Assembly (NCBI GenBank): GCA_046482545.1
Contig: JAWOEX010000037.1
Location: forward strand, 2,030-66,029
Direction of reading: 5' to 3'
DNA length: 64,000 bases
Source of the DNA: Candidatus Thorarchaeota archaeon
Lineage (GTDB): Archaea > Asgardarchaeota > Thorarchaeia > Thorarchaeales > Thorarchaeaceae
Shown: positions 1 through 50,364 of the stretch, piece after piece
Numbering within the stretch: position 1 is the first letter of the stretch
Layout of the letters: each line of letters begins with the position of its first letter
Made by a program: the position numbers and the translations under genes
Notes under the pieces: generated by a model
What the model saw: only the letters and a program-made list of their open reading frames with translations
Database searches by the model: none
Told to the model about the DNA's origin: nothing

Positions 1-232
1 CAACGAAATTAAACAGCACCTTGTCGTTCTCAGTGCAATACTCGCGAATCAGTTCATTATTTTGCCAACGAGTGTAGCCATCTGACCCGCTAGTTTGAAC
101 GTTACCAGTCATATAGATGAAAGTCACATCCGGATTATCACTCTCTATAACATGTTTCTTACAGTTGAGTGAGTGAACCCAACTGAGGAAACTCCTGTGT
201 TCCACCCTTTCCTTGCCCAGCGTCGCCGCCAT
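1..232 (-). CDS. Partial, probably 5'-truncated gene running off the window edge. The recognisable part (about 1-144) reads IESDNPDVTFIYMTGNVQTSGSDGYTRWQNNELIREYCTENDKVLFNF, an SGNH-hydrolase-like domain segment
   Basis: My own translation (not in the ORF track because it has no stop): open frame from ATG at 232 to base 2. FIYMTG...N..IR.YC..N.K.LF is a pattern I recall from secreted SGNH-like proteins. The first ~29 codons overlap the structured RNA candidate and do not look homologous. Confidence 0.4.
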   Translation of the reverse strand, partial: MAATLGKERVEHRSFLSWVHSLNCKKHVIESDNPDVTFIYMTGNVQTSGSDGYTRWQNNELIREYCTENDKVLFNFV

Positions 233-546
233 ACCGGAGCGCTACCCCCGGCCAAGCAAACACTTTGGCCGCCATCATCAGGACACGGTCCCTCTTGCGG
301 TCTCGGCTTCTGTCTCCTGCCCTGACCCGGATACATCATGCCCGGGGACAGCGAGTGTTCCCGCAGCTTTTGCCACGGCGGGTTTATTATCGCTCGGTCT
401 AGTCTCGTCACCGAAGCTGGACAAATCCAATTGGACAAAGCGAACAGCTCCGGACTCTCCCCGGCCTGGGGAGGACCCTCGTTCGGAGTGTGAGGACTTC
501 TGCTTAGAAGACGAGGTCTTCCTCACAGCCTTCGGGGCCCAAAGAG
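150..546 (-). ncRNA. Candidate structured non-coding RNA of unassigned class (about 280-400 nt)
   Basis: 217/360 G+C over 181-540 versus mid-40s percent in flanking genes. Many hairpins, several of which contain G-U pairs only on the minus strand (CAGUUGGGU/ACUCAACUG, CCCGC..GGC-AAAA-GCU..GCGGG, GGCCAA..UUGGCC). Long-range complement CCGGAGC/GCUCCGG (447-453 with 234-240). No convincing protein in any frame. Confidence 0.55.
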
Positions 547-566
547 TTAATGCTCATTCGATAATG

Positions 567-574
567 AATATATC
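567..574. promoter_or_regulatory. AT-rich TATA-like element between the RNA candidate and mutY, possibly bidirectional
   Basis: AATATATC/GATATATT lies about 25 nt from the GC-rich boundary at ~545 and about 40 nt before the mutY start. Confidence 0.3.
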
Positions 575-612
575 ATCACCAGACAAGCACTAAGTAGTAT
601 GGTGGATGTTTC

Positions 613-3334: not shown

Positions 3335-6259
3335 CTAGTCCAAATCTGAAATCGTTGTAATGACGTGGAAAATCACTGACTTCGGAGACGGAGCAACATC
3401 AAATCTAATACATATAACACCTGATACTGCCTCGTAAGAAACTCCTGATGAGTTCTCTTCTGGCCATGGAGCAAAATCTAACCACTCGATTCCGTTCCAT
3501 AGCTGTGCTGTCATTGGCTCTGAATAGTTGAACCAAGTGGAATAGGAATGCCCCTCCGTTAGGCTGGCGTTGATGAAAAGTAGGCCACCTTCGTGAATCG
3601 AGTATGGTAACGGGACCCCGAAATACTCAATATCTCCATTATGCCAGAGAGGGTTATCAATACTAGATCCAGCAACTGGTGCTGTATTGGCAATGATATG
3701 TCCAGTGACATCAGAATCAGAACCAAAGAAAACAATTCGCACGAGGCTTACACCATCAGCAGGATATGAATCTTCAAAGAAGCGTGGTAGGAGAATCTCT
3801 CTAGGCCATTCACCTTCTGCATATTTACCCTCGTTTGTAACTAATGGGAAATCAAAGTTCGTTGAATTATAAACCTCCATATACCAATCCGCTTCAGATT
3901 CGAATCCCGTGTCAATTTCCATGAATAGATTGTAGTCGAAATTTGGATCTAGTACCAGTTCATACCACTTGTGACCACCTGTGCGCCATATTTCCGAATG
4001 CAGGAGATAATCCTGATTTGGGACCATTGGAACTGGATTTTGCGGAACTGCACCTTCGCGCCAATCCTCAAGGATTTCGATTGTTCCGTTGAGAATAGAA
4101 GTCCAGTTGTACTGAGACAGGGTTATTTTGTATTCTCCGAAACCCCAGATATGATCTGGATCGAAGTTGATAAGTATATTATCGCCAGCTGTAATCTCAG
4201 CTTGTTCAACAACGGGACCTATCGGTGATTCGATAGTTAGATTGAATGCGCTATTGTCCGAAATTGCTGTAGTGTTTACTCTGAGAGTATAATTATGGAG
4301 ATCAGCGTAATAGGTAAAGTTCCAGAAGATTTCCCAAGGCCAGTCAAATGGTGTTGAATTGCCAAATTCCCATGGTAATTTGAATTTATACGGACCACCA
4401 TTGGGCGTAATCTGCACCGGCCCCGGGCGTGGGATTGGTTCAACGGTCATGTTGATTCGGGCTACAGAGTCCTCAACATGGGTTTTAATGACGATAATTT
4501 GCACGAGTTTCTTGGAGTGGGCTTCCGGATTAACTGCCACATGTGGAAACGATGAACCATAATCAAAAGGTGATTGGGGCATCTTCCGTCGAGTGCCATC
4601 CTCATAAACGTAGATGAATGTGATTTTCCACTTGCTATTCGATGGATTGACATTGAAAGAAACCTTGAATGGTTGCGTGCTATTTACCTTGATTCGTTCA
4701 ACGCCTGCAGCGTAGGATCCGACCTTCAGGCTATCGCTCACCGTATCGTTGTTGTAGGTGACATTGACATGGGTCTTTCTTTCGGGAACACTGTTATTTT
4801 CTATGGCTCCCGTCATCATCCAAGCATGAAACTCGGCTAACACCTGTTCCCATGTCTTACCGAGCACTTGGGCAATTGCCTCTTTGGGGCTGACGTCCTT
4901 GCTGTCATTGTTGAAATTATCCTGTACTGTATCAAAAATTTGCTTGAGTTTGGCTTCACCAAATACTTCTGCTATGAATTTGTTGAAAAGATAGGAGCCC
5001 ATGTAGTCAGAGTAGCTGCCACCCCATCCTTTGAAGATTGAGCGATTCAAATCAGTGTAATGCTCATACCAGTTGTGATCACCGACACGCTTGAATTCGT
5101 CTTGAATCTCTTTGTGCGTCAAATTGTAGTTAGCCCGTGTGGACTCAATACCCCAGTATGTTGCTTGGCCTTCTATCCAGAACTTGTTGGCAACTGGTGC
5201 ATGATCCACCGTGTCGTTGCCTTTCTTCTCAGTCTTATATTGGAAGAGGTGCATCAATTCATGCTCACACACGTACTTCAGGTCGGTATCGCTTTTCTTC
5301 TTCCCAATTTCGAGGACAATATGGCCTTTGGTTGATGCCTTCCCCACGGTTTCATCGCTGCTTCCTTTTAGCACGGTGACATTGATTTTGCCGGGTCTGT
5401 AGGTAACAGGCCCTCTCGTGAAGCCTTTCTTATGGTAGAAATCTAAGCTGTAGGCAATGTGCTTCTTGATTTCCTTGACATAATCACCATCAACGCCGCT
5501 CTTGTTGTAGACGTCAACCTTTTCGCCTTTTTCAGAAAGTACTGTATCATCAATGCCATCGAACGAAAAATCTCTATTTGCACCATTGGTTATTGTAACC
5601 GTATAACCTGTCTCAACAGCCAGAAAGCTATACACATTCGGCCGTGCTGGAGAGATAGGACTCAACATCCACTTACTAGTATTTGTGGATTCAAAGCCAA
5701 AAAGGGATATTGAGCCGGTGTGATTGGAGGGGATTGATGGGCCGTCGTCTTCATCGGGCCAATTATCATAGGTATCGTCACCATTGCCTCCGTTATAGCG
5801 TACGTAGTCGATGACATGTCCATTTTCATTGAAAAGCCCTATCTCATCGCCCAGAGGGTCAAGCAGTCTATCTGTCAAACCAAGATGAATACTTGCGGAC
5901 CCATCACTTGCATCTAGGTCATCTTCTCCTGTGCCCCCGTAGACTGCGATATAGTCTTCCGCATCTATATTGTCTATTGTAGGTAGTGCCAGCATCCCTT
6001 CCTCATCGAAAGTTGTAACATACCAACAAGAAAGAGTTTGTTCTGGGTAGCCTTCAGAGATGTAAATCTCGAAAAACTCCTGATTCACTGTCAGGGTCTG
6101 GTTGTAGTGTATTTCGCTTATCTGAACGGCATCTGCGAAGTCTGATGGTGTGTCAATAGGGGTTGGTGCACCTGGCTGCTGTAGCAGCAAGAAGACAGTC
6201 AATCCCGAGGCAGCAATAATTACAATAACAATTAGAACGGCAGTTGTTTTTCGATTCAA
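3335..6259 (-). CDS. Large N-terminally anchored or secreted protein: lamin-tail-like domain, gluzincin-type zinc metallopeptidase domain and beta-rich C-terminal modules
   Basis: Hydrophobic anchor VLIVIVIIAASGLTVFLLL; VQISEIHYN..EFFEIY (LTD-like); HELMH plus FWIEGQATY (HExxH plus third-ligand Glu). TTG at 6259 is a more plausible start than 6352. Confidence 0.7.
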   Translation of the reverse strand: MNRKTTAVLIVIVIIAASGLTVFLLLQQPGAPTPIDTPSDFADAVQISEIHYNQTLTVNQEFFEIYISEGYPEQTLSCWYVTTFDEEGMLALPTIDNIDAEDYIAVYGGTGEDDLDASDGSASIHLGLTDRLLDPLGDEIGLFNENGHVIDYVRYNGGNGDDTYDNWPDEDDGPSIPSNHTGSISLFGFESTNTSKWMLSPISPARPNVYSFLAVETGYTVTITNGANRDFSFDGIDDTVLSEKGEKVDVYNKSGVDGDYVKEIKKHIAYSLDFYHKKGFTRGPVTYRPGKINVTVLKGSSDETVGKASTKGHIVLEIGKKKSDTDLKYVCEHELMHLFQYKTEKKGNDTVDHAPVANKFWIEGQATYWGIESTRANYNLTHKEIQDEFKRVGDHNWYEHYTDLNRSIFKGWGGSYSDYMGSYLFNKFIAEVFGEAKLKQIFDTVQDNFNNDSKDVSPKEAIAQVLGKTWEQVLAEFHAWMMTGAIENNSVPERKTHVNVTYNNDTVSDSLKVGSYAAGVERIKVNSTQPFKVSFNVNPSNSKWKITFIYVYEDGTRRKMPQSPFDYGSSFPHVAVNPEAHSKKLVQIIVIKTHVEDSVARINMTVEPIPRPGPVQITPNGGPYKFKLPWEFGNSTPFDWPWEIFWNFTYYADLHNYTLRVNTTAISDNSAFNLTIESPIGPVVEQAEITAGDNILINFDPDHIWGFGEYKITLSQYNWTSILNGTIEILEDWREGAVPQNPVPMVPNQDYLLHSEIWRTGGHKWYELVLDPNFDYNLFMEIDTGFESEADWYMEVYNSTNFDFPLVTNEGKYAEGEWPREILLPRFFEDSYPADGVSLVRIVFFGSDSDVTGHIIANTAPVAGSSIDNPLWHNGDIEYFGVPLPYSIHEGGLLFINASLTEGHSYSTWFNYSEPMTAQLWNGIEWLDFAPWPEENSSGVSYEAVSGVICIRFDVAPSPKSVIFHVITTISDLD

Positions 6260-49236: not shown

Positions 49237-49692
49237 TCAGAAATCCAGCCGTATTGTTTCCCACCGGAGCCTCCCCGCCTCTACAGCCTCTTTGATTTTT
49301 CTTTCAGTTTTATTCAGTCTAGCATTGCCCGTCTTGATATCCGCCAAAATGACAGTAATCGGTGAAGGTGAACCTTGATCCTTGGCTGCGGTATAGCCGT
49401 CAAAAATCAGGTAGTCAATGGGGGCACCTATGAATCGTGCATCCGATGGATCATAGTGAAAAACATCACTCAGCATAGGAACCATGTGTTCTGCTATCTT
49501 ACCTTTCAGTACGTATCTGCTGCGCCGTGTAGCATCCTTTCGAATATCCGATTCTTGTTCTGCCCACATTTTCTCAAACTCGGCTTCCACCATCTCAATG
49601 CGATGCCTGAGTCTTGCTTTCATAGCCCCGTATACAATAACAGCAATGAACAGCCCAATTCCTAAACCTAGGATAATATCCAGGAGTACCAT
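49237..49692 (-). CDS. Holliday-junction-resolvase-like PD-(D/E)XK nuclease with an N-terminal TM anchor
   Basis: GKIAEH, RFIGAPIDYLIFDG, DIKTG..L...ERKIKEAV..G..WE. Confidence 0.8.
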   Translation of the reverse strand: MVLLDIILGLGIGLFIAVIVYGAMKARLRHRIEMVEAEFEKMWAEQESDIRKDATRRSRYVLKGKIAEHMVPMLSDVFHYDPSDARFIGAPIDYLIFDGYTAAKDQGSPSPITVILADIKTGNARLNKTERKIKEAVEAGRLRWETIRLDF

Positions 49693-49744
49693 ATCATATT
49701 ATGGTGATGGTGCAATATATGCCCCAGTATAACCTGTTTCTTAT

Positions 49745-50160
49745 AGTTGATTGAAGCCAACTGAGGAAAATCCTATGTTTCATCCTTCCCTTGCCAACTT
49801 TGCCGCCCTGAAGGTACTCGTAGTACCTCAAGTTAGCACTAGCTTAGCCCATATCTACTGGAATGGGATGCCTCCCATGATTCTATCTTCCGCCCCTGTC
49901 TCCATCCCGGGTGATCACTCCCGGCGACAGCGAGGTCTTCCACAGTTTTTGCCGCGGCGTAGTCATGATCACCAGAATCAGCCTTGTCACCGTAGCTGAA
50001 AAGGCCCATTACGGACAAGGTGAACAGTCGTCGACTCTCCAGAGTTCGATGAATCTCTTTGTGCGGAGAGTGAGAAATTCCATCAAGAAACACGATTCTT
50101 ACATCGGGTTCTCGACGGTGTGACTCGTGGTACTGCACCAAGCCACGTACCTGATCCTAC
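49745..50160 (-). mobile_element. Possible heavily degraded DDE (IS4/IS5-like) transposase remnant
   Basis: Fragments in different frames: VTPSRT..D (50110-50124), YGDKA-DS (about 49975-49995), TFRAAK (49798-49815). No intact ORF and no terminal repeats seen. Confidence 0.3.
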
Positions 50161-50364
50161 TGGGAGTTTCTTTCGTATTGGAAATAATGAAGCCCCTTGC
50201 TGTTGGAGAATACAAAAGCCAAACGAACTATCTTGGGCGTGCCATTGATTTATGTGAAATCTTACAGAAATCCTACGCTTTGGTATGTTGAATTATTTGG
50301 GATTGTTTGTATTCGTTTAACACACTCAGATTCATAGGACAAGTTATCCTATTGTATAGTTGGA

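What the first reader, a model, noticed from the sequence alone, without database searches (positions are those of the whole stretch)
150..546. Unassigned GC-rich structured RNA candidate on the minus strand
Seen: about 60 percent GC island (217/360 over 181-540) with no credible protein. Minus-strand hairpins include GCC-ccgaa-GGC, then UGUGA, then GGAAGAC-cuc-GUCUUCU; UGUGAGGA/UCCUCACA; GCUUCGGU/ACCGAGC; AGCGA/UCGCU enclosing CCCGC/GCGGG; CCGGG/UCCGG; GGCCAA/UUGGCC; and a terminal 9-bp CAGUUGGGU/ACUCAACUG. Several stems need G-U pairs that exist only on the minus strand. Long-range pairs: CCGGAGC/GCUCCGG and CUUUGGGCC/GGCCAAAG. Possible pseudoknot: CUCGUC with GACGAG. Mutually exclusive stems near the 5' end suggest a switch or alternative folds. 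A TATA-like element lies about 25 nt upstream. Established: pieces resemble SRP (Alu-like UGUNR junction; CAGG..AGC), RNase P (GAGGAA, ACAGAA) and group I (GAGACUAG), but none fits completely. Inference: a very divergent known RNA or a new Asgard ncRNA, ribozyme or mobile RNA.
Basis: partly seen in the sequence, partly recalled or inferred. Interest (0 to 1): 0.8.

Follow-up and report, generated by a model that had tools for sequence, protein, structure and literature searches.

The report
Orphan TnpB guide-RNA (omega RNA) module
The GC-rich block is a real folded RNA gene. It is the leftover guide-RNA end of a TnpB "jumping gene" that is common in Thorarchaeota (Asgard archaea), so it is a known kind of selfish element and not a new ribozyme or a divergent RNase P or SRP RNA.

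Summary
**Observation.** Rfam gives no hit, even at E<=10.

**What it is.**
- Window 538->147 (minus strand) aligns at 83% over 392 nt (E 9e-114) to the 3' end of a complete tnpB element, L153. That stretch is the last 88 codons of a 560-aa TnpB plus 127 nt up to the element's right end.
- About 140 relatives were fetched. Of 46 hits in named genomes, 41 are in Thorarchaeota MAGs.
- The relatives are either ~2.1-kb tnpB copies or short tnpB-less copies.

**Is it an RNA?**
- On 76 sequences the consensus fold pairs in 93.5% of cells, against ~42% when partners are slid.
- 81 of 136 pairs change on both sides, and 0 of 500 shuffles reach the observed values.
- The many G-U pairs place the RNA on the tnpB coding strand, which is the window's minus strand.

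**Copy number and expression.** The window holds a second, degraded copy near 49.7-50.2 kb, and the assembly holds a third. Word depth in the source DNA is 25-65 times that of the flanks. Relatives appear in salt-lake metatranscriptomes, but this locus itself does not.

**Status of this copy.** It has no tnpB and no left end, so it cannot move.

**Verdict.** It is a tnpB-less omega-RNA relic, a new member of a known kind.

The parts
147..538 (-). Copy 1 (c1): the omega-RNA / right-end module of a Thorarchaeota TnpB element, without tnpB and without a left end
   Evidence: It aligns at 83% over 392 nt (E 9e-114) to L153:5420-5810, the 3' end of a complete tnpB element. Homology to the window's second copy and to the family stops at the same 3' base. 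Source-metagenome contigs covering 1-176 and 419-900 confirm both junctions.
281..553 (-). Relic of the TnpB C-terminal tail reading frame, with its stop codon at 278-280. It overlaps the 5' two-thirds of the RNA scaffold. The family's start codon is out of frame here.
   Evidence: The translation ...GESGAVRFVQLDLSSFGDETRPSDNKPAVAKA...ETARGTVS* is 70-78% identical to the tails of the 559-560-aa TnpBs P0004-P0007. tblastn with a family TnpB hits 457-305 at E 1.6e-9.
147..277 (-). Non-coding 3' part of the scaffold, running to the element's right end (...GUAAGAAACAUGUUAU)
   Evidence: It matches L153:5684-5810, downstream of the tnpB stop. It holds consensus helices 24-29, which covary.
154..192 (-). 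Terminal composite hairpin: GUUUC (192-188) with GAAAC (158-154), enclosing CAGUUGGGU (185-177) with ACUCAACUG (170-162). It contains the GTTCACTCA motif at 178-170.
   Evidence: The motif is conserved across the family. The same motif was reported downstream of Asgard tnpB genes in PMC10691335.
506..522 (-). Hairpin GGAAGAC-cuc-GUCUUCU (consensus helix 7)
   Evidence: It is compensated to GGUGGAC...UUCCACU in c3 and L147. It is paired 4/4 in c1.
395..424 (-). Consensus helix 16, a hairpin capped by the loop GUGA
   Evidence: 12 of its 13 pairs change on both sides across the family. It is paired 10/13 in c1.
127..146 (-). Flank just 3' of the right end. By analogy with characterised TnpB omega RNAs this would be the guide. 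This is inference only.
   Evidence: Conservation among copies stops at 146/147. The guide position was not tested.
556..575 (-). AT-rich TATA-like stretch (GAUGAUAUAUUCAUUAUCG) about 25-30 nt upstream of where homology begins. It is a possible promoter for this copy.
   Evidence: Sequence only. No expression data exist for this locus.
49728..50165 (-). Copy 2 (c2): a degraded paralogue of the same module. GC is lower, the tail frame is broken by a stop, and only 98 of 136 consensus pairs are kept.
   Evidence: blastn gives 80% and 69.5% identity for two segments. See also alignment A1.

Best explanation
Window 147-538 (minus strand) is a stranded fragment of a TnpB transposon.

**What it contains.** It holds the element's guide-RNA gene (omega RNA, also called reRNA) and its right end. 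It lacks the tnpB body and the left end.

**How intact relatives are built (shown).**
- A ~560-aa TnpB gene runs into a structured RNA of roughly 450 nt.
- This TnpB has Gly at the usual RuvC-II glutamate. It carries the relocated glutamate in ExxxxxxCxxC.
- The last ~100 codons of tnpB and the next ~130 nt together form the RNA scaffold. Sequence conservation there is set mainly by base pairing, not by the protein.

**How it works (inferred from characterised TnpB systems).**
- The RNA is made from the 3' end of the tnpB transcript, or from a local promoter in tnpB-less copies.
- It folds into the multi-helix scaffold and is bound by TnpB.
- Its 3' end reads into the flanking DNA, which serves as the guide.
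- The guide directs TnpB to the element-free version of the same site.

**Status of this copy.** It cannot move, because the HhH-GPD gene starts at 613 and leaves no room for a left end. It is one of at least three tnpB-less copies in this assembly. Most likely it is a relic that may still be transcribed. It could act only if a cognate TnpB is encoded elsewhere in the genome.
For: **Homology.**
- 83% identity over 392 nt (E 9e-114) to the 3' end of a full tnpB element.
- TnpBs P0004-P0007 have tails 70-78% identical to c1's frame.

**Family anatomy.**
- 102 metagenome loci and 46 genome loci matched the search pattern.
- About 30 loci have a 550-600-aa ORF ending 183 nt after the pattern start, inside the RNA region.
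- About 45 short copies begin sharply at about -137 relative to the pattern start.

**Partner protein is a TnpB.**
- Pfam PF07282 scores 44 bits against a cut-off of 26.3.
- The best PDB match is TnpB 9nzp, E 1.8e-9.
- NCBIfam guided_TnpB gives E 2.8e-24.

**RNA structure.**
- 93.5% of cells are paired, against ~42% for slid controls.
- 81 of 136 pairs show double-sided change (shuffle mean 43).
- 594 cells are compensated (shuffle mean 177); 0 of 500 shuffles reach the observed values.
- Codon-position entropy is nearly flat at 0.47/0.475/0.55, while paired and unpaired columns differ (0.37-0.44 against 0.63-0.71).
- pN/pS is 0.64-0.72 in frame and 0.80-0.90 in the off-frames.
- c1 keeps the helices from helix 6 onward, with 17 compensated pairs.
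- The GC-rich subfamily (c1, c3, L147) shows 7 compensated pairs.

**Multi-copy.**
- Copy c2 lies in the window.
- Copy c3 lies at a contig edge of the same assembly.
- Word depth is 429-753 at 151-180, against 6.5-17 in the flanks.

**RNA-level presence.** Contigs from salt-lake metatranscriptomes cover only 154-540.

**Literature.** tnpB-less PATE elements often encode omega RNAs that must be used in trans (PMC10055086).
Against: - There is no expression evidence for this locus itself. The RNA contigs carry other flanks, and Logan contigs have no strand.
- c1 forms only about 79% of the consensus pairs from helix 6 on, against 93.5% for the family. It lacks the 5' helices 1-5.
- Its GC enrichment is the same in paired and unpaired columns, so it is not evidence of selection for stability.
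- The guide position and the TAM were not established.
- Two insertions show 8-nt and 11-nt target-site duplications. This does not fit classic IS200/IS605 transposition.
Confidence: 0.88

Rival explanations
1. This copy is a working stand-alone guide-RNA gene. It would be transcribed from its own promoter and loaded onto a TnpB made elsewhere in the genome. It would then either keep the insertion in place or, because its guide matches the start of the downstream gene, act on that neighbour.
For: - tnpB-less copies are numerous and keep the whole scaffold.
- Near-identical RNA contigs exist: 72 nt with no differences and 98-99 nt with 2-3 differences.
- Cognate full-length TnpBs exist in related MAGs.
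- c1, c2 and at least two other copies sit 6-40 nt upstream of a same-strand ORF.
- PATE omega RNAs are thought to work in trans (PMC10055086).
Against: - This locus has no expression data.
- c1 lacks the 5' helices and the left end.
- c1 shows more broken pairs than the family average.
- Sister copy c2 is clearly decaying.
- No cognate tnpB could be shown in this genome.
Confidence: 0.2
2. The block is only a dead piece of coding sequence, the C-terminal end of a tnpB pseudogene, and the RNA-like features are incidental.
For: The frame 553->281 is homologous to TnpB tails. The single-sequence folding energy is not better than shuffles.
Against: - In the family this region is constrained by base pairing, not by codons.
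- 130 nt of c1 lie beyond the stop codon and are equally conserved.
- Relatives are abundant in metatranscriptomes over exactly this stretch.
Confidence: 0.04
3. It is a very divergent housekeeping or catalytic RNA (RNase P RNA, SRP RNA, group I intron or another ribozyme), or a new class of Asgard ncRNA unrelated to mobile elements.
For: There are short motif resemblances (GAGGAA, ACAGAA, UGUNR-like, GGAGAGUCC). It is a GC-rich island with no Rfam family.
Against: - No Rfam match even at E<=10.
- It is multi-copy, with tens of copies by depth.
- It is contiguous with tnpB in about 30 loci.
- The motif order does not fit RNase P RNA or SRP RNA.
Confidence: 0.01
4. It encodes a small protein, the roughly 100-aa tail peptide. 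The short family members do keep this as an intact mini-ORF.
For: - 31 of 33 short elements keep an ATG-to-stop ORF of about 104 aa.
- Stop-creating substitutions are depleted: 12 cells in frame, against 45 and 100 in the off-frames.
- Indels are mostly multiples of three.
Against: - In c1 the family ATG is out of frame, so only a GTG at 526 could start an 82-aa ORF.
- c3 has no ATG, and c2 has an early stop.
- Amino-acid constraint is weak, with pN/pS about 0.7.
Confidence: 0.03

Closest known systems
TnpB omega RNA / reRNA of IS200/IS605-family elements (for example ISDra2), and the archaeal 'sotRNAs' of IS1341-type tnpB genes. The sotRNA comparison rests on my own knowledge.
   Same: - It is encoded at the 3' end of tnpB and overlaps the end of the ORF.
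- It runs to the transposon's right end.
- It has a conserved multi-helix scaffold.
- The partner is a RuvC-type, zinc-finger TnpB.
   Different: - The scaffold is much longer: about 450 nt with about 29 predicted helices. Of this, about 320 nt lie inside the ORF, whereas characterised TnpB scaffolds are roughly 120-250 nt (my knowledge).
- It has no Rfam model.
- The guide and TAM are not determined.
- The partner TnpB has the relocated RuvC-II glutamate.
- Two insertions show target-site duplications.
PATEs, the palindrome-associated transposable elements: tnpB-less IS200/IS605 derivatives that keep an omega RNA (Meers et al. 2023, PMC10055086)
   Same: These are short, multi-copy, nuclease-less derivatives that keep the guide-RNA region and must rely on a TnpB made elsewhere.
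   Different: - c1 has no left end and so is not a transposable PATE.
- The family's short elements differ from a gene-less PATE. They keep an in-frame ~104-aa mini-ORF made of the TnpB start codon fused to its C-terminal tail.
Asgard-linked TnpB groups of Altae-Tran et al. 2023 (PMC10691335: 'Cas1H-Asgard-1/2') and their RuvC-II-rearranged ('RIIr') branches
   Same: - The host is an Asgard archaeon.
- The conserved GTTCACTCA motif lies downstream of tnpB (c1 178-170).
- Gly replaces the RuvC-II glutamate.
   Different: - No Cas1-like gene was found next to the copies examined.
- The recurrent neighbour is instead an unannotated protein of 1,500-1,900 aa.
- The stretch just upstream of GTTCACTCA is a covarying hairpin arm here, not an obviously hypervariable spacer.
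'Ealt' TnpBs and Fanzors (Yoon et al. 2023, PMC10711439)
   Same: The partner TnpB has E six residues before the first CxxC (AVPEGWTSIMCWKCG). Its RuvC-I motif is of the D-hydrophobic-G type (GIDLG).
   Different: This concerns the partner protein, not the RNA in the window. The host is archaeal, the motif is not DPG, and no IS607-type TnpA was seen.

Membership tests
TnpB omega RNA (reRNA) module | Lies at the 3' end of a tnpB gene, overlaps the ORF end and extends to the element's right end | tested here: met
   This holds in homologues. About 30 loci have the TnpB ORF ending 183 nt into the region. c1 aligns to L153:5420-5810, where tnpB ends at 5683. c1 itself has lost tnpB.
TnpB omega RNA (reRNA) module | Conserved secondary structure supported by compensatory changes, on the tnpB sense strand | tested here: met
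   93.5% of cells are paired against ~42% when slid. 81 of 136 pairs change on both sides, and 0 of 500 shuffles reach the observed values. Many G-U pairs are present.
TnpB omega RNA (reRNA) module | Partner protein is a TnpB: RuvC I/II/III plus a zinc finger | tested here: met
   Pfam PF07282 is above its cut-off. PDB TnpB 9nzp matches at E 1.8e-9. NCBIfam guided_TnpB gives 86 bits, E 2.8e-24, below its curated cut-off of 100. Motifs present are GIDLG, CWKCG..CPSCG, NADRNG and the relocated Glu.
TnpB omega RNA (reRNA) module | A 3' guide taken from the DNA flanking the right end, and a TAM next to the target | not testable with these tools
   Conservation stops at 146/147, which is consistent with a flank-derived guide. 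No RNA 3' ends, TAM or cleavage data are available.
TnpB omega RNA (reRNA) module | RNA is made and bound by TnpB | tested here: inconclusive
   Relatives are assembled from metatranscriptomes over 154-540 only. There is no strand information, no data for this locus and no binding data.
Classic IS200/IS605 element (Y1 TnpA, no target duplication) | Insertion without target-site duplication; a Y1 tnpA in autonomous copies | tested here: not met
   Two occupied/empty pairs show duplications of 11 nt (TGATAAAGATT) and 8 nt (ATAACAAT). No tnpA-like neighbour emerged among the recurrent flanking ORFs. Only two clean pairs were available.
PATE / MITE-like non-autonomous element | Both transposon ends are present, there is no protein gene, and there are multiple copies | tested here: not met
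   c1 has no left end. Homology to the full element starts at 538, and the HhH-GPD gene starts at 613. The family's short copies do have left-end sequence but keep a mini-ORF.
RNase P RNA / SRP RNA / group I intron / other Rfam families | Match to the family covariance model | tested here: not met
   There was no hit at gathering score in the whole window. On 100-620 at E<=10 the only hit was an unrelated one at E 6.9. The element is also multi-copy.
Asgard aCas1-associated TnpB transposons (PMC10691335) | GTTCACTCA motif downstream of tnpB | tested here: met
   c1 has it at 178-170. It is conserved in the family alignment.
Asgard aCas1-associated TnpB transposons (PMC10691335) | Adjacent Cas1-like gene | tested here: inconclusive
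   The recurrent divergent neighbour (1,533-1,922 aa) has no Pfam, PDB or PADLOC match, Cas1 included. No structure comparison was run.

The most novel reading that the evidence does not exclude
Thorarchaeota may host a distinct TnpB transposon lineage with three unusual traits.
- Its unusually long (~450-nt) guide-RNA module has been released many times as stand-alone units that are maintained by selection.
- The mobile short forms would then be dual-function genes. They would encode both the RNA scaffold and a ~104-aa basic-acidic tail peptide read through it. Their frame is kept open far beyond chance.
- The lineage may be moved by an unrecognised machinery. Target duplications of 8-11 nt and a conserved 1,500-1,900-aa neighbour with no detectable domains point that way.

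Under this reading, copies like c1 would be retained trans-acting guide genes rather than debris.
Probability: 0.15. Interest if true: 0.6.

Novelty: new member of a known kind. Interest (0 to 1): 0.3.

Why it matters
- **Annotation.** The result turns an "unassigned structured RNA" into an annotated feature. GC-rich, ORF-poor islands in Thorarchaeota genomes can be the guide-RNA ends of TnpB elements, which Rfam does not yet model. Such islands break assemblies: two contigs of the deposited assembly (GCA_051748335.1) start inside copies of this element.
- **A resource for TnpB work.** The family alignment and its covariation-supported fold describe one of the longest TnpB scaffolds. About 320 nt of it overprint the nuclease's own C-terminal tail.
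- **Relevance.** This bears on how RNA and protein constraints share one sequence. It also bears on mining compact RNA-guided nucleases of the relocated-glutamate (Fanzor-like) type from Asgard archaea.
- **This copy.** By itself it is most likely an ordinary relic.

Tried and rejected
- **Known RNA families.** Rfam at gathering score and at E<=10 gave nothing. By-eye fits to RNase P RNA (CR-I-like GGAGAGUCC, ACAGAA) and SRP RNA (Alu-like UGUNR, helix-8-like) failed on motif order. The multi-copy finding then made them moot.
- **Single-sequence folding.** It is not informative.
- **Whole-genome tools.** I could not look for RNase P RNA or SRP RNA elsewhere, nor for a cognate tnpB in this genome.
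- **First scan of named genomes.** The 3' motif GGCAAGGNAAGGNTGNAACANAGGANTTTC found nothing. The central motif GGAGAGTCNNNNNCTGTTCNCNNTGTCC worked. About 7 hits are chance: L035, L062 and five bacterial contigs. One of the five, L147, is in fact a real copy on a probably mis-binned contig.
- **Spurious-ORF trick.** Searching the plus-strand ORF 213-593 as a protein found only the third copy in the same assembly.
- **My own wrong turn.** I first read c1 as holding a degenerate left end and start-codon junction like the short family members. The alignment to L153 shows homology simply starting at 538, with no left end.
- **CRISPR-repeat idea.** GUUUC...GAAAC around the terminal hairpin is better explained as the right-end hairpin.
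- **GC enrichment as selection for stable stems.** Rejected, because the enrichment is equal in paired and unpaired columns.
- **RNA contigs on a full-length GC-rich element.** No permitted locus is close enough.
- **P0005 locus.** It could not be fetched.
- **TAM.** I tried to read one from the empty sites. TGAT-like letters precede two duplications, but other pairs do not agree, so I make no claim.
- **Covariance model.** I built none.
Full report
**1. The observation**

The block is as described.
- Over 181-540 there are 217 G+C in 360 bases, against 45.5% for the window.
- It lies between a minus-strand ORF that runs off the window start and a plus-strand HhH-GPD glycosylase gene at 613-1434.
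- Rfam gives nothing at gathering score for the whole window. At E<=10 on 100-620 there is only one unrelated hit at E 6.9.
- The minimum-free-energy fold of the single sequence is no better than shuffles: z = -0.84 for the minus strand and -1.8 for the plus strand. Any claim of structure must therefore rest on relatives.

**2. First clues: conserved, sharply bounded, repeated**
- The stretch is held by many public runs from other habitats, including salt-lake metatranscriptomes.
- At 80% likeness, contigs from three RNA runs and one DNA run cover only about 154-540 and nothing outside. Identities are 85-100%, and the loose ends run into other flanks.
- A blastn of the block against the window found a second, diverged copy at about 49.73-50.16 kb in the same orientation (alignment A1).
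- Similarity between the two copies stops exactly after ...GUAAGAAACAnGUUAUA (window 146/147).
- A spurious ORF on the plus strand led to a third copy at the very edge of another contig of the same assembly, GCA_051748335.1, a Promethearchaeati MAG.
- That assembly's contig with the HhH-GPD gene also starts inside copy 1.
- In the source DNA runs, contigs covering 1-176 and 419-900 confirm both junctions.
- Word depth inside the element reaches 429-753, against 6.5-17 in the flanks.
- A single-copy housekeeping RNA is therefore excluded.

**3. The family**

One scan of JGI metagenomes with a motif shared by the three copies returned 102 loci. The same motif in one-genome-per-species contigs returned 46 loci. 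Of these, 41 are in Candidatus Thorarchaeota MAGs, with up to 12 copies per MAG.

Oriented in the RNA sense, the loci fall into two classes.
- **Full-length copies.** About 30 carry a 550-600-aa ORF on the same strand. It starts about 1.6 kb upstream and ends 183 nt after the motif, which is inside the "RNA".
- **Short copies.** About 45 have similarity to the long form starting sharply at about -137. That point is preceded by left-end sequence (TTGTATGAGTTCATATAC...TATGAAAGGACTAGG) shared with the long form.

The ORF is a TnpB.
- Its motifs are GIDLG (RuvC-I), CWKCG...CPSCG and NADRNGSINIA (RuvC-III).
- Pfam PF07282 is above its cut-off.
- The best PDB match is TnpB 9nzp, followed by Cas12f.
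- NCBIfam guided_TnpB gives E 2.8e-24.
- At the usual RuvC-II glutamate it has Gly (YVAIGRL).
- 58 residues downstream it has the relocated glutamate, six residues before the zinc finger (AVPEGWTSIMCWKCG). This is the 'Ealt' arrangement of PMC10711439 and the 'RIIr' branches of PMC10691335.

**4. Copy 1 against a complete element**

Copy 1 belongs to a GC-rich subfamily, together with c3 and L147.
- I searched with a chimeric query scored only over c1's frame translation. This found 559-560-aa TnpBs (P0004-P0007, Thorarchaeota and 'Lokiarchaeota' MAGs) whose tails are 70-78% identical to it.
- In the locus of P0006 (L153, tnpB at 4001-5683), window 538->147 aligns to 5420-5810. Identity is 83% over 392 nt with one gap, E 9e-114.
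- Copy 1 is therefore the last 88 codons plus the 127 nt that follow, up to the right end, and nothing else.
- That stretch is also 59-60% GC in the complete element, so the GC island is a property of the subfamily's RNA region.
- No left end is present. There is also no room for one, because the glycosylase gene begins at 613.

**5. It is an RNA**

I aligned 76 sequences (A2; two rows are chance hits). An RNAalifold consensus was counted with the pair tool.
- 93.5% of cells form standard pairs, against 38-44% with partners slid by 1-3 columns.
- 81 of 136 pairs have changes on both sides (shuffles 42.9 +/- 3.2).
- 594 cells are compensated (shuffles 177).
- The covariation score is 0.256, against 0.06-0.08 for slid partners.
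- 0 of 500 shuffles reach any of the observed values.
- The strongest helices are 16 (12 of 13 pairs compensated), 25 (11 of 12), 19, 24, 10 and 3/4.
- Frequent G-U pairs fix the strand as the tnpB sense strand, which is the window's minus strand.

The part that overlaps the ORF is constrained as RNA rather than as protein.
- Entropy by codon position is 0.47/0.475/0.55, which is almost flat.
- Paired and unpaired columns differ: 0.37-0.44 against 0.63-0.71.
- pN/pS is 0.64-0.72 in frame and 0.80-0.90 in the two other frames.

Copy 1 keeps the helices from helix 6 to the end, with 17 compensated pairs. It lacks the 5' helices 1-5 and forms fewer consensus pairs than the family average. Within the GC-rich trio, seven pairs are compensated.

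- **Supported:** the GGAAGAC/GUCUUCU hairpin, the CCGGG/UCCGG hairpin and the terminal hairpin.
- **Not in the supported fold:** the two long-range pairings CCGGAGC/GCUCCGG and CUUUGGGCC/GGCCAAAG.

**6. What it is and how it works**

The region is the omega RNA (reRNA) gene and right end of a TnpB element.

Shown here:
- its position relative to tnpB;
- the conserved fold;
- the TnpB partner;
- the multi-copy state;
- the presence of relatives in RNA data.

Inferred from characterised TnpB systems:
- TnpB binds this scaffold.
- The 3' flank (146->~127 here) is the guide.
- The complex attacks the element-free allele.

tnpB-less derivatives that keep the omega RNA are known as PATEs and are thought to depend on TnpB in trans (PMC10055086). 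PMC10691335 noted a conserved GTTCACTCA motif downstream of Asgard tnpB genes. That motif sits in the terminal hairpin of this family, at 178-170 in c1.

Copy 1 is immobile, has lost the family start codon's frame, and has no expression data of its own. Its sister c2 is visibly decaying. I therefore read c1 as a relic that may still be transcribed. I give about 20% to its still acting as a trans guide. The window has none.

**7. Comparison and novelty**

The element works like a TnpB omega RNA and meets the testable membership features.

It differs in these ways:
- length: about 450 nt, of which about 320 nt overprint the ORF tail;
- the relocated-glutamate partner;
- signs that the transposon is not a classic IS200/IS605 element. 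Two clean occupied/empty pairs show target duplications of 11 nt and 8 nt.

It is a new member of a known kind. Earlier notes of this scan on other copies in this genome and on the partner TnpB reached the same reading. They are AI notes, not independent evidence. The first of them supplied the lead, which I then tested.

**8. Things beyond the finding**
- **Mini-ORF.** The short mobile copies keep an in-frame mini-ORF of about 104 aa, made of the TnpB start codon fused to the tail.
  - 31 of 33 are intact.
  - Re-dealing each copy's substitutions leaves only 8.7 +/- 2.6 of 34 stop-free, against 30 observed.
  - Stop-creating changes number 12 cells in frame, against 45 and 100 in the other frames.
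  - Indels are mostly multiples of three.
- **Giant neighbour.** Many full-length copies have a divergent neighbour of 1,533-1,922 aa with no Pfam, NCBIfam (first 522 residues only), PDB or PADLOC match.

These two observations carry the only real novelty, and neither concerns copy 1 directly.

**Verdict.** It is an orphan TnpB guide-RNA module. Interest is low to moderate.

Noticed in passing
window 49728-50165 (minus strand): A second, degraded copy of the same omega-RNA module, 70-80% identical and about 50% GC. Its tail frame is broken by a stop 51 nt after the motif. It lies about 30 nt upstream of the minus-strand ORF 49237-49692.
   Followed up: partly
L004:1-320 (GCA_051748335.1 contig JBNJHH010000066.1) and L001 (contig 82, which starts at window 276): Two contigs of the deposited assembly begin inside copies of the element, so the repeat breaks the assembly. 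In the source DNA runs, word depth inside the element is 25-65 times that of the flanks.
   Followed up: yes
short family members, e.g. L066:419-913:-, L092:12253-12747:+: The tnpB-less mobile copies keep an in-frame ~104-aa mini-ORF (MKGLGMWTR...GIPSR), which is the TnpB start codon fused to its C-terminal tail. 31 of 33 are intact, stop-creating substitutions are depleted, and indels are mostly multiples of three. Amino-acid constraint is weak (pN/pS about 0.7). This may be a dual RNA and protein gene, or the frame may be kept by exchange with full-length copies.
   Followed up: partly
L049:3731-8593:-, L029:4832-9901:-, L084:7433-13201:+, L072:9511-14754:+, L125:543-5144:-; also L153:1-3745:-: A protein of 1,533-1,922 aa is encoded divergently just upstream of tnpB in at least 17 loci. 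Copies are 27-79% identical over the first ~520 residues. It has no Pfam, PDB or PADLOC match, and NCBIfam on its first 522 residues also gave nothing. A D...ExK-like motif (VDILL...VFEIKT) is visible by eye. It could be cargo or the unknown transposition machinery.
   Followed up: partly
L146 vs L116, and L111 vs L135 (occupied and empty sites): Clean target-site duplications of 11 nt (TGATAAAGATT) and 8 nt (ATAACAAT) flank two insertions. Classic IS200/IS605 elements make none. Full-length elements measure about 2.15 kb and short ones about 0.6-0.7 kb.
   Followed up: partly
L041:911-2665:- (P0003) and relatives P0004-P0007: The partner TnpB has Gly at the canonical RuvC-II glutamate (YVAIGRL). 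It carries a glutamate six residues before the zinc finger (AVPEGWTSIMCWKCG), the 'Ealt' arrangement shared with Fanzors. It is probably an active nuclease.
   Followed up: partly
L147 (JAWLDB010000221.1, labelled Bacillota bacterium MAG): The closest database relative of copy 1 (82% over 363 nt) sits at the edge of a 4.3-kb contig binned as Bacillota. This is most likely a mis-binned Thorarchaeota contig.
   Followed up: no
left ends of full-length copies, e.g. L041, L008 (about -1600 relative to the motif): The left end holds ...CATAACCAATCTT...GGGAGTGAACTCGACTG. By eye this looks like an inverted copy of the right-end ...CAGTTGAGGTTCACTCACC...AAGATTTAGGTTATG. A TTTATATA box lies about 25 nt upstream of TTGTACGAG.
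   Followed up: no
window 130-146; window 49693-49727; L102, L111 right flanks: Several copies end 6-40 nt upstream of the start of a same-strand ORF. This was not tested against chance.
   Followed up: no
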